Shown here: positions 61,601 through 64,000 of the stretch, piece by piece
Layout: every line of letters starts with the position of its first letter
How positions within the stretch are numbered: position 1 is the first letter of the stretch
Origin: Escherichia coli
Lineage (GTDB): Bacteria; Pseudomonadota; Gammaproteobacteria; Enterobacterales; Enterobacteriaceae
DNA: 64,000 bases
Assembly (NCBI RefSeq): GCF_024298765.1
Contig: NZ_CP101210.1
Reading direction: 5' to 3' (one strand)
Position numbers: made by a program

Positions 61601-64000
61601 CTCTGCCGGAGAAAATGCGGGCAACCAGGATGCGTCCTCTCCACGCCGCGCACCAATTTTAGTGACAATTGTCAGGTCGTCAGAGTAAGGATAAAGCGCT
61701 TCGCGGATAATCTGATTGGTGACGTGCGGACCATAAAAGTCGCTGGTATCAATATGATTGACGCCCAATGCCAGCGCCTCACGCAGCACGGTTATAGCGA
61801 CGTGGCGATCTCTTGGGGGGCCAAAAACCCCAGGACCTGCCAGTTGCATCGCGCCATAACCAAGACGGTTAACGGATTTTGTACCGAGAGTAAATGTATT
61901 GCTGCTCATCGCACCCTGCCCTGTAATAAAACGGATTAAGAAAAATAGTATAGAAACGAAAAGAGATAAATAATGCGAAGGCGTAAACAAGATTACTGGA
62001 TGAGTTGCTCTATTGCCCTGAAAGACACCAAAACAAAACGCGTCAAGTACCGCATCCGGCAATAAAAAAACCGCAACCTGTATCAGCGTTGCGGTTTAGG
62101 TATCACATGCTAAAAATTAGAACGTCCAGCATCAGGACGTTACTGTTTCGGTCGCAGATTCTCATCAAATACCAGGCGCTGCCTGCCAGGTTCAACTTCC
62201 CGCAATGGCTCAACTTGATGCAACGTCTGCTTACTGCGTGTCACCAGCACCTGATACTCATGCGTGCCCTGCTTTTTCCATGCCAGTTCCTGCTCACTAA
62301 GTTCACGAATCGCTTTTGCCGGGCTGCCGACAATCAGGTAATTAGCAGGCATTTCTGCTTTGGCTTTCACAAATGCGGAAGCGCCAACAATGCTGTTCTC
62401 GCCAATCACCGCACCGTCCATCACTACCGCGTTCATACCCACTAATGCATTGCGGCGGATAATGCAGCCGTGAAGGATAGCGCTATGACCAATATGCCCA
62501 TCTTCTTCCACGACAGTATCCTGATCGGGAAAACCGTGCATAACGCAATTATCCTGAATGTTCGCGCCATCTTTCACCACGATACGACCGAAATCGCCAC
62601 GCAGGCTGGTATTTGGCCCAACGTACACGCCCTTGCCGAGAATAACATCGCCGATCAATACCGCTGTCGGATGGACAAAACTCTCTTCTGGCACAAACGG
62701 AGTCAGACCGTCTATCTGATAAATTGGCATAACGCCTCCTGTTCAATATTCAAGCCGCCAAAACGTTGAAAATACAGGCTTCCCGGCGCAGGCAATTCAC
62801 CGACCGAGGTTTCACCTTTTTCACTAACGAACGCTAAAGCAGCAGGCGCTACGCGCTGATAAAGTTTGCCGATAAAGGTTTGGTAGTCGCGCAATATATC
62901 CGTAACCGTCGTCTCGATTTTTGTGCAGATGCGATTCGCCATGCCGCAGATGATGAAAAACTGGCAGGCATTGGCTTTCATTGGGGATTTTCCGACCAGA
63001 GTCATTTTTCAACGGTATTTAAGCAACGCTTTGGGATGACGCCAGGCGAGTATCGACGTAAATTCCGCTAACTAATTCGCGTTGCATGTACAGCAACGCG
63101 AATTAGTTAAAACAGATATTTGACTATGCATTTTTCAGGGCGAAAGGCAATTTGACAGGAATTTTTGAATATTCACGTTGTTTCCGGAAAATAGATTAAT
63201 CGTCTTCTCCTGTAGCGTTATCCCGATATTGCGGTTTTGCTATTAAAATTTTCGCACCCATTTACCGTTTATCCCTTGTACATATTCCCCGGGTTTGGCC
63301 CGTTCTACAAGCTTTTGCCCGGCGAGTTTCGCGATATCATCCACCGACACATTATTCTGCTTTGCCAGTTGTTGATAGCTCGCTTTACGTTCGGCATTGA
63401 TGTCGGTTACTAATTTCTCAGTTTCAGCATCTGTTTTCAGCGCAACCAGATAACCATAAAATGTTTCGCCTACCCGCCCCTGAGTTCTGGCTTCATCCAG
63501 AGTCAATGCCATTACATTGCTGCTTACCAAGCCAACAAGAAATGCACAAAGAAGTAATGTTCTTTTCATCATCACCTCAAAAAAGATCGCTACGGGTCTC
63601 AAGCAGCTCTTCGACATCTTTGTCTGCCTTGATGATGATCTCATGCTCAATTTTAACGTTCATATTGATAGTGATCGGTTCCTTAGGTGCAGCGACTTCA
63701 ATGCGAGGCGTACAGCCAACCAGCATAAAAGATGACGTCAACGCAGCCAGTAAAATTTTCATTGTTTATCCTCACACTCTTTTCCTTGCGGACAGTCATT
63801 TCCCGGTAGATGCGCGTTCTGCTCCAGCCATGCCTGGAGATTATCGCCAAAGCGTAAACTGCGCCACAGCGTAAAAATATTCTCTTCATGATGGTAATTA
63901 AGATTTACCGTACCGCTTTTACCATCAACGCGACTGGTACCTGTAATATTGGCCTGCATGGTTAATAAACCGAGATTATCTAAATTAATTTTTGTCGATG

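What the first reader, a model, noticed from the sequence alone, without database searches (positions are those of the whole stretch)
63069..63109. 41-bp near-perfect palindrome overlapping the feaR-remnant stop codon
Two 17-bp perfect arms (TAACTAATTCGCGTTGC / GCAACGCGAATTAGTTA) flank a 7-nt palindromic loop. It lies between the convergent feaR remnant and ydbL, so it most likely acts as a bidirectional terminator, but a perfect palindrome this long could also be a protein binding site.
Basis: seen in the sequence. Interest (0 to 1): 0.25.

Follow-up and report, generated by a model that had tools for sequence, protein, structure and literature searches.

The report
ERIC-like hairpin at feaR stop codon
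A real 41-bp hairpin-forming palindrome sits between two converging E. coli genes, but it lacks what a self-acting transcription terminator needs and looks like an ordinary 3'-end RNA hairpin, probably descended from a known enterobacterial repeat (ERIC).

Summary
The palindrome is real: 17-bp perfect arms and a 7-nt spacer at 63069-63109. It is the longest hairpin in the window; shuffled sequence gives arms of at most 11 bp. It begins on the TAA stop of a truncated feaR and lies 133 nt past the stop of convergent ydbL.

It is not a canonical terminator. Neither strand has a U-tract. In K-12, published bicyclomycin data place a Rho-dependent termination zone about 120 nt beyond it on the ydbL strand, and Term-seq lists no 3' end there.

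The site is single-copy and specific to E. coli. The feaR and ydbL stops abut in Pseudocitrobacter and Pluralibacter, and UTI89 lacks the palindrome. It segregates as five haplotypes in about 4,200 complete genomes. One stem pair occurs as C-G, G-C, A-T and as a C.C intermediate.

Its arms and loop resemble the inner hairpin of ERIC/IRU repeats (30/37 identical to a 55-bp short ERIC; nhmmer E=2e-4). ERIC termini and core are absent.

Best reading: an ERIC-related hairpin relic in a shared 3' region. At most it acts as a U-tract-less stem-loop that blocks exonucleases on Rho-terminated transcripts. Its symmetry is kept by compensatory change or template switching. It is ordinary and of low interest.

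The parts
63069..63085 (.). Left arm of the palindrome (TAACTAATTCGCGTTGC). Position 63078 (stem position 10) is polymorphic C/G/A. Position 63085 is C/T.
63086..63092 (.). 7-nt spacer/loop ATGTACA. In K-12 it reads ATGTACT, which gives an 18th pair and the loop TGTAC. Positions 63086 (A/G) and 63092 (A/T) are polymorphic.
63093..63109 (.). Right arm (GCAACGCGAATTAGTTA). Position 63100 (stem position 32) is G/C/T and covaries with 63078. This arm is closest to the published ERIC/RU-1 arm ctgcaactcgaattattta.
63069..63071 (+). TAA stop codon of feaR, which is also the first three bases of the palindrome.
62864..63071 (+). 3' remnant of feaR (AraC-type HTH region). Its 5' part was lost in a 17,752-bp deletion that joins it to a paaX remnant.
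63110..63242 (-). Remainder of the feaR-ydbL spacer, which is the proximal 3' UTR of ydbL. It has no other strong hairpin and no terminator-like or promoter-like site. It is the most polymorphic stretch of the region.
63243..63569 (-). ydbL, last gene of the ydbH-ynbE-ydbL operon. Its transcripts must cross the palindrome 133 nt after the stop codon.

Best explanation
The palindrome is a single-copy hairpin element specific to E. coli. It was inserted or created exactly at the feaR stop codon, in the spacer between the convergent feaR and ydbH-ynbE-ydbL units. It is most likely descended from the inner hairpin of an ERIC/IRU (RU-1) repeat. Both of its arms now correspond to one ERIC arm and that arm's perfect complement.

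It is transcribed into the 3' region of either unit and folds into a 17-18-bp RNA stem-loop without a U-tract. It therefore does not stop RNA polymerase by itself. Rho terminates transcription further downstream; this is shown only for the ydbL strand in K-12. The inferred role of the hairpin is then to stop 3'-to-5' exonucleases and so set or stabilise the mRNA 3' end.

Base pairing is kept over time by compensatory changes. These could arise through selection on the hairpin or through replication template switching in the DNA palindrome. Shown here: the anatomy, the uniqueness, the population variation, the ERIC similarity and the Rho dependence on one strand. Inferred: the protective function and the ERIC descent.
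For: Anatomy:
- The hairpin is strong on both strands and has no U-tract.

Rho dependence:
- A Rho-dependent zone lies at MG1655 1446501(+). That is 121 nt past the palindrome (1446340-1446380) on the ydbL strand. Downstream read counts equalled upstream counts under bicyclomycin.
- Dar & Sorek 2018 (PMC6061677) describe this class: stable stem-loops without U-rich tails lie just upstream of Rho termination and protect transcripts from PNPase and RNase II.

Population variation:
- The site occupies one locus per genome.
- There are five haplotypes. Stem pair 10/32 occurs as C-G, G-C and A-T, plus a C.C intermediate. The remaining variation sits next to the loop. All haplotypes still fold at -20 to -27 kcal/mol.

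ERIC link:
- The only other E. coli sequence resembling it is an ERIC element.
- It is 30/37 identical to a 55-bp short ERIC, with the same central TGTAC. The arm matches 17/19.
- Against the published RU-1 sequences the arm matches 15/17 and 17/19.
- nhmmer with a short-ERIC model gives E=2e-4, the top hit in the window.
- None of 20,000 palindrome-preserving shuffles reach the observed score.
- ERICs are co-transcribed hairpins that affect mRNA stability, and they are known to fuse to gene 3' ends and replace stop codons.
Against: - No Term-seq 3' end was curated at the hairpin base in three K-12 growth conditions. Expression there is low, about 54 reads per 800 nt.
- The element is dispensable. 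UTI89 lacks it and has a different sequence after ydbL. In related genera the feaR and ydbL stops abut with no hairpin at all.
- Nucleotide diversity inside the palindrome is not lower than in its flanks.
- About 10% of genomes carry an internal C.C mismatch, and about 32% carry two non-Watson-Crick pairs next to the loop.
- The formal covariation test rests on one pair and six distinct sequences; 21 of 500 shuffles do as well.
- The ERIC termini (TATAC...GTATA, flanked by TA) and the central core are absent. The similarity is only borderline significant once the pan-genome search space is counted. My estimate is E of about 0.01-0.03, scaled from E=6 in 28 Gb.
- There are no transcript data for the feaR direction.
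Confidence: 0.4

Rival explanations
1. It is a functionless DNA palindrome. A relic hairpin, ERIC-derived or not, persists in a fast-evolving spacer, and its arms are kept or made complementary by replication template switching (quasipalindrome correction), not by selection on any RNA or protein-binding role.
For: - Diversity in the palindrome is no lower than in its flanks.
- The mismatch-bearing haplotype Hc (about 415 genomes) and the loop-proximal imperfect haplotype Hb (1,330 genomes) are common.
- The pair swaps G-C to C-G and C-G to A-T are transversions with no wobble intermediate. RNA-driven compensation would not be expected to look like this.
- Both arms equal one ERIC arm and its exact complement, which suggests arm homogenisation.
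- The element is absent from UTI89 and from other genera without replacement.
- Lavi et al. 2018 (PMC5941160) show that perfect inverted repeats in E. coli non-coding DNA are conserved beyond expectation, and they attribute this to template switching.
Against: - The mechanism cannot be observed from sequence.
- The abundant Hb haplotype moves away from perfection (CA to TG), so correction is not efficient.
- The position, exactly at a stop codon in a convergent 3' region upstream of a Rho zone, fits a known functional class.
Confidence: 0.3
2. It is an intrinsic (Rho-independent) bidirectional terminator for feaR and ydbL. A variant of this idea is that the hairpin positions head-on RNA polymerase collisions between the convergent units.
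For: - A strong hairpin with a GC-rich upper stem lies between convergent genes.
- No other terminator-like site exists in the spacer.
- Wang et al. 2022 (bioRxiv 10.1101/2022.10.23.513370) report that a nascent-RNA stem-loop is required for collisions of convergent polymerases to occur at defined positions.
Against: - Neither strand has a U-tract, and there is no A-tract/T-tract flank.
- Bicyclomycin restores full read-through on the ydbL strand in K-12 (87 reads upstream, 91 downstream).
- No Term-seq 3' end is seen at the site.
Confidence: 0.1
3. It is a DNA operator for a dimeric protein. One candidate is the neighbouring repressor PaaX, whose boxes read TGATTCGYG.
For: - The site has long dyad symmetry.
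- The window haplotype carries TAATTCGCGTT in each arm. That resembles the K-12 PaaX boxes TGATTCGTGTT (Pa) and TGATTCGCGAT (Pz), which I located with the published TGATTC-N27-GAATCA pattern.
- The site lies beside the fea/paa cluster.
Against: - The half-site spacing is N21, not N27.
- The half-sites are TAATTC/GAATTA (5 of 6). In K-12 and in most paa-positive strains they are TAATTG/CAATTA (4 of 6).
- The site lies at a 3' end, not at a promoter.
- 17-18-bp arms are far longer than typical operator half-sites.
- There is no match to Ter.
Confidence: 0.05

Closest known systems
Protective 3' stem-loops of Rho-dependent transcripts (Dar & Sorek 2018, PMC6061677)
   Same: A stable stem-loop comparable to a terminator hairpin. 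It has no U-rich tail, lies just upstream of a Rho-dependent termination zone, and is not a REP element.
   Different: No steady-state 3' end has been mapped at this hairpin. The stem is unusually long and perfect (17-18 bp). It would have to serve two convergent units from one palindrome.
ERIC / IRU / RU-1 repeats, especially 55-bp short forms (yafP-ykfJ in strain w264, the yehK locus, speFL-speF)
   Same: Arm sequence and central TGTAC loop (30/37 identical; arm 17/19). An intergenic, co-transcribed hairpin next to a gene's 3' end. ERICs are known to fuse to 3' ends and replace stop codons.
   Different: It lacks the TATAC.../...GTATA termini, the TA flanks and the ERIC1R/ERIC2 core. It is single-copy. 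Its arms are perfectly complementary, whereas ERIC arms pair imperfectly.
Bidirectional intrinsic terminators of convergent genes (Ju, Li & Liu 2019, cited from my own knowledge; Wang et al. 2022 preprint)
   Same: A single hairpin placed between convergent genes and able to fold on both strands.
   Different: It has no A-tract/U-tract flanks. Read-through on the ydbL strand is sensitive to Rho inhibition.
Quasipalindromes and perfect inverted repeats shaped by template switching (Lavi et al. 2018, PMC5941160; Klaric et al. 2020, PMC7202029)
   Same: A non-coding perfect inverted repeat whose variants differ by complementary changes in the two arms, with an imperfect intermediate still segregating.
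   Different: The mechanism is not demonstrated here. One common haplotype (Hb) is less perfect than its presumed parent.
REP/BIME elements
   Same: Extragenic palindromes in 3' regions that stabilise upstream mRNA.
   Different: No sequence similarity to REP. Single copy. The lower stem is AT-rich.

Membership tests
Intrinsic (Rho-independent) terminator | GC-rich stem-loop with a 3-8 nt loop | tested here: met
   17-bp stem with a GC-rich upper 7-8 bp and a 5-7 nt loop.
Intrinsic (Rho-independent) terminator | U-rich tract (about 5 or more U in 8 nt) immediately 3' of the stem | tested here: not met
   The tails are AAACAGAT on the plus strand and GCGGAATT on the minus strand. The scan found no terminator-like site in 62700-63700.
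Intrinsic (Rho-independent) terminator | Termination independent of Rho, with a precise 3' end at the U-tract | tested here: not met
   This was tested only through published K-12 data. The Rho score is 4.03 at 1446501(+), with +BCM counts of 87 upstream and 91 downstream. No Term-seq end lies at the site. The feaR direction is untested.
Protective stem-loop of Rho-terminated transcripts | Stable stem-loop not followed by U-rich sequence | tested here: met
Protective stem-loop of Rho-terminated transcripts | Rho-dependent termination downstream of the stem-loop | tested here: met
   Met for the ydbL strand in K-12 only, from published bicyclomycin data. There are no data for the feaR strand.
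Protective stem-loop of Rho-terminated transcripts | Steady-state RNA 3' end at the 3' base of the stem; longer tails appear in pnp/rnb mutants | tested here: inconclusive
   No curated 3' end at 14462xx-14464xx in Adams et al., but coverage is low. The supplements of Dar & Sorek and of other 3'-end maps are not held.
ERIC / IRU / RU-1 | Sequence similarity to the consensus arms | tested here: met
   30/37 identical to the short ERIC. Arm matches are 17/19 (yafP-ykfJ copy and Salmonella RU-1) and 15/17 (E. coli consensus). nhmmer gives E=2e-4 in the window. None of 20,000 palindrome-preserving shuffles reach the score.
ERIC / IRU / RU-1 | Terminal inverted repeats TATAC.../...GTATA with flanking TA (target duplication) | tested here: not met
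   The flanks are AAATTCCGC and AAACAGA. They match the ERIC termini at 3 of 7 positions, which is chance level.
ERIC / IRU / RU-1 | Central conserved core (ERIC1R/ERIC2 primer region), about 127 bp in total | tested here: not met
   The core is absent. It is also absent from the bona fide 55-bp short copies.
ERIC / IRU / RU-1 | Multiple dispersed copies per genome | tested here: not met
   This sequence occupies one locus per genome. The short-ERIC query finds a median of 4 places per genome.
PaaX operator | TGATTC-N27-GAATCA at a regulated promoter | tested here: not met
   The site reads TAATTC-N21-GAATTA in the window haplotype and TAATTG/CAATTA in K-12. It lies at a 3' end.
Tus-Ter site | AGNATGTTGTAACTAA core | tested here: not met
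   No match within 3 mismatches at the site.
Any Rfam RNA family | Score at or above the family's gathering threshold | tested here: not met
   Only sub-threshold generic hairpin (miRNA precursor) hits were found.

The most novel reading that the evidence does not exclude
The site may be a natural, still-segregating record of concerted palindrome evolution. A single ERIC arm was symmetrised into a perfect hairpin. In about 4,200 E. coli genomes one stem pair has since been rewritten at least twice (C-G to G-C through a C.C intermediate that persists at about 10%, and C-G to A-T). That would make it a rare population-level example of template-switch-driven arm homogenisation, or of selection on a domesticated MITE hairpin at a gene's stop codon.
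Probability: 0.2. Interest if true: 0.4.

Novelty: new member of a known kind. Interest (0 to 1): 0.2.

Why it matters
The practical lesson is small. A long perfect hairpin between convergent genes should not be annotated as a terminator when it has no U-tract. Here the available K-12 data point to Rho doing the termination.

The site also shows two things worth knowing. A fragment of an ERIC-type repeat can end up supplying a gene's stop codon. And a palindrome can change sequence while staying a palindrome within one species.

If the compensatory series proved to be driven by template switching, it would be a convenient natural test case for that mutational process. Nothing here suggests a new kind of system.

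Tried and rejected
- Rfam (evalue mode, 62700-63700): only sub-threshold miRNA-like hairpin hits.
- Terminator and promoter scans of the spacer: no terminator-like site anywhere in 62700-63700, and the two promoter-like sites lie outside the spacer.
- Tus-Ter core: no match at the site.
- PaaX operator. I recalled the consensus and confirmed it from a review. I located real boxes in the K-12 paaZ-paaA and paaX upstream regions. The palindrome has the wrong spacing and imperfect half-sites, so I rejected it as the main reading.
- REP and matS: no sequence resemblance, judged by eye. No tool run was needed.
- Cross-species comparison. That was enough to show that the stops abut in two genera. 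It was too few for real phylogenetic depth.
- A homologous precursor in the 70-bp spacer of the Escherichia genome L003: the alignment score equals the shuffled mean.
- Transcript 3'-end data. Adams 2021 was usable. The Dar & Sorek, nanopore and Conway supplements are not held, the SMRT-Cappable-seq supplements do not mention these genes, and the Ju 2019, Peters 2012, Galan 2004 and Wilson & Sharp 2006 papers are not held.
- Literature search for a described feaR terminator: nothing found.
- Mapping haplotypes onto flanking backgrounds to count independent origins: recombination mixes the backgrounds, so this was inconclusive.

Full report
**Observation**

The sequence at 63069-63109 is TAACTAATTCGCGTTGC-ATGTACA-GCAACGCGAATTAGTTA. 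The arms are 17 nt and perfectly complementary, with 7 nt between them. It is the longest hairpin in the 64-kb window. In 30 dinucleotide-preserving shuffles the longest arm was 8-11 bp, and none had an arm of 12 bp or more.

As RNA it folds at -24.9 kcal/mol on the plus strand and -25.5 on the minus strand. As single-stranded DNA it folds at -18.6 kcal/mol.

**Context**

The window is E. coli. Strain 104 is 100% identical over 62600-63400. Its annotation gives:

- paaY on the minus strand at 62140-62730;
- a paaX 3' remnant;
- a feaR 3' remnant ending at 63071;
- ydbL, ynbE and ydbH on the minus strand from 63243.

A 17,752-bp deletion joins paaX to feaR at 62863|62864, corresponding to MG1655 1464338|1446585. 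It removed the 5' part of feaR, feaB, tynA, paaZ, paaA-K and the 5' part of paaX. At least 259 complete genomes match across the junction.

The palindrome starts on the feaR stop codon TAA. It ends 133 nt before the ydbL stop. MG1655 annotates nothing in this spacer. In MG1655 coordinates the palindrome is 1446340-1446380.

**Is it a terminator?**

Neither strand has a U-tract after the stem. The plus strand reads AAACAGAT and the minus strand reads GCGGAATT. If only the GC-rich upper stem is counted, both strands read AATTAGTT. The consensus scan finds no terminator-like site in 62700-63700. The palindrome is the only strong hairpin in the ydbL 3' UTR.

Published K-12 data bear on the ydbL direction. 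Adams et al. 2021 (PMC7815308, supplementary file 2) list a Rho termination region at 1446501 on the plus strand, antisense to feaR. Read counts in the 800-nt windows upstream/downstream were 54/14 without bicyclomycin and 87/91 with it. The Rho score is 4.03 and p = 1.3e-5. That position is 121 nt beyond the palindrome.

With Rho inhibited, downstream coverage equals upstream coverage. So the 18-bp K-12 hairpin does not terminate efficiently on its own. The caveats are low counts, 800-nt resolution, and possible new antisense initiation under bicyclomycin.

Their curated Term-seq tables hold no 3' end at 14462xx-14464xx. No data exist for the feaR direction.

**Distribution**

A BLAST of the 41-mer against 5,426 complete E. 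coli genomes finds it only at this locus. The second place reported per genome for the near-palindromic query is most likely the same site matched on the opposite strand; I did not check this.

UTI89 has an island replacing everything left of window ~63179, so it lacks the palindrome.

A FeaR-anchored scan of species-representative genomes gave two Pseudocitrobacter loci and one Pluralibacter locus. In these the feaR stop TGA is followed immediately by the ydbL stop, with no spacer and no hairpin (ydbL confirmed for Pseudocitrobacter). A fourth locus, an Escherichia genome with 96% FeaR identity, has an unrelated 70-bp spacer.

The 171-bp spacer with the palindrome was found only in E. coli among the genomes sampled. 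It is dispensable for ydbL.

**Variation**

A metagenome scan anchored on the feaR 3' end, not on the palindrome, returned 117 loci. Together with genome loci this gave 124 sequences. Two 41-mer searches gave counts in complete genomes; the Hc and He counts are derived from BLAST identity bands, not counted directly. I number the palindrome 1-41, and pairs are written left-arm position/right-arm position.

| Haplotype | State | Complete genomes |
|---|---|---|
| Ha (K-12) | G10-C32, T24; 18-bp perfect arms | about 1,432 |
| Hb | as Ha, but C17A18 changed to TG | 1,330 |
| Hd (window) | C10-G32, A24; 17-bp perfect arms | 880 |
| Hc | C10.C32 mismatch | about 415 |
| He | A10-T32 | about 138 |

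The total is about 4,195 of 5,426 genomes. In Hb the two changed pairs become U.G and G.U wobbles on the feaR-sense RNA, and A.C mismatches on the other strand.

One stem pair therefore shows three Watson-Crick states plus the unpaired intermediate. All other stem positions are invariant apart from one singleton. All haplotypes still fold at -20 to -27 kcal/mol.

The evidence for constraint is limited:

- Diversity inside the palindrome is not lower than in its flanks.
- The formal pair-count test rests on six distinct rows; 21 of 500 shuffles reach the observed covariation score.
- Haplotypes sit on several flanking backgrounds, so independent origins cannot be counted.

**ERIC link**

Among genomes lacking the palindrome, the best match of the 41-mer was in the yafP-ykfJ spacer (H68, 30/37 identical, E=6 in 28 Gb). 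That sequence turned out to be a repeated element with a median of 4 places per genome.

- In MG1655 the same locus holds a 127-bp element carrying both ERIC-PCR primer sites, each with one mismatch. The primer sequences are from my own knowledge.
- Strain w264 at the same locus, the yehK locus and the speFL-speF spacer hold a 55-bp short form: TATACTCGTCATACTTCAAGTTGCATGT(A/G)CTGCGACTCGAATTATTTAGAGTATA.
- These match the published RU-1/ERIC sequences (Delihas 2007, PMC2759123, Table 1a).

The feaR palindrome aligns in register with the short form, including the identical central TGTAC. Its arm CTAACTAATTCGCGTTGCA matches the ERIC arm CTAAATAATTCGAGTTGCA at 17 of 19 positions.

Significance estimates:

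- An nhmmer model built from three short copies hits 63075-63109 as the top hit in the window (E=2e-4, 17.4 bits).
- None of 20,000 palindrome-preserving shuffles reach the observed alignment score of 23; the null maximum is 19.
- Scaling the BLAST E-value to a non-redundant pan-genome gives roughly 0.01-0.03. This is my own estimate.

I regard descent from an ERIC-type hairpin as probable (about 65%) but not proven. Both arms of the feaR palindrome correspond to the same ERIC arm and its exact complement, whereas ERIC's own arms pair imperfectly. The outer termini and the core are missing. It is therefore not a bona fide ERIC copy.

If ERIC is used as an outgroup, C10, G32 and T24 are ancestral. 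That gives a simple path: ancestor to Hd by one change; ancestor to Hc to Ha by two changes; Ha to Hb by the tandem CA-to-TG change; and Hd to He by two changes. Two complete compensations would have occurred at the same base pair.

**Mechanism**

The anatomy and the K-12 Rho data fit the class described by Dar & Sorek 2018 (PMC6061677). In that class, stem-loops without U-tracts sit just upstream of diffuse Rho termination and stop PNPase and RNase II. ERIC elements are likewise co-transcribed hairpins reported to modulate mRNA stability.

I therefore favour a passive, exonuclease-blocking 3' stem-loop that can be used from either strand (confidence 0.4).

The main rival is that it does nothing, and that its symmetry is a product of template switching. 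Lavi et al. 2018 (PMC5941160) proposed that process to keep non-coding inverted repeats perfect in E. coli (confidence 0.3). The transversion pair swaps, the common imperfect haplotypes and the dispensability all favour this rival.

An intrinsic or collision-positioning terminator (0.1) and a protein operator (0.05) are poorly supported.

**Verdict**

This is a real and statistically exceptional palindrome of an ordinary kind. It is unannotated and, as far as my searches reach, undescribed. I file it as a new member of a known kind, with low interest (0.2).

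Noticed in passing
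window 62863|62864 (paaX remnant 62712-62863 on the minus strand; feaR remnant 62864-63071 on the plus strand): A 17,752-bp deletion relative to MG1655 (1446586-1464337) removes the 5' part of feaR, feaB, tynA, paaZ, paaA-K and the 5' part of paaX. The junction reads GATAAA|GTTTGCC. It lies next to an AATGTT motif present at both parental sites, but it is one base off a clean microhomology join. At least 259 complete E. coli genomes match across the junction.
   Followed up: partly
L014 (strain TUM13770), equivalent to window ~63106: An IS5-family element (ISKpn26) is inserted inside the right arm of the palindrome after ...GAATTAG, at a TTAG target. It destroys the hairpin in that strain.
   Followed up: no
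L009 (UTI89), junction equivalent to window ~63179: In UTI89 an AT-rich island replaces everything left of ~63179. The island carries an 8.3-kb gene annotated as an 'EntS/YbdA MFS transporter'. As a result ydbL has a different 3' region without the palindrome.
   Followed up: partly
L133 (MG1655 yafP-ykfJ spacer, 253339-253465) versus L010 1490-1544 (strain w264): The same locus holds a full 127-bp ERIC in K-12 and a 55-bp short ERIC in w264. The short form lacks the central 72 bp, so this is a within-species internal-deletion polymorphism.
   Followed up: partly
L135 401-455 (strain EcPF40): A 55-bp short ERIC hairpin lies between the speFL leader peptide gene and speF. That is inside a leader region known (from my own knowledge) for ornithine-sensing, Rho-dependent attenuation.
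   Followed up: no
MG1655 1446501, plus strand (equivalent to window ~62948, minus strand): A published Rho termination region lies antisense to feaR (Adams et al. 2021). In the window strain this sequence is retained within the feaR remnant.
   Followed up: partly
window 21023-21057, 54146-54175, 61012-41 and 62068-62097: These are the other long hairpins in the window, with 13-, 11-, 12- and 10-bp perfect arms. 61012-61041 (ACAAAAGGGAAATGCATCTTTCCCTTTTGT) was flagged as terminator-like. 62068-62097 has AAA/TTT flanks and lies just downstream of paaY. Both look more like classical terminators than the feaR palindrome does.
   Followed up: no
window 60408-60999: An IS200C transposase gene (annotated in the identical strain 104) with the hairpin AACCCCCAGCCTAGCTGGGGGTT at 60977-60999.
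   Followed up: no
window 63110-63242: The rest of the feaR-ydbL spacer is the most polymorphic stretch of the region: 28 segregating sites in 133 bp. One sequence carries a deletion of about 30 bp. The stretch has no detectable similarity to the spacer of the nearest Escherichia genome that lacks the palindrome (L003).
   Followed up: partly
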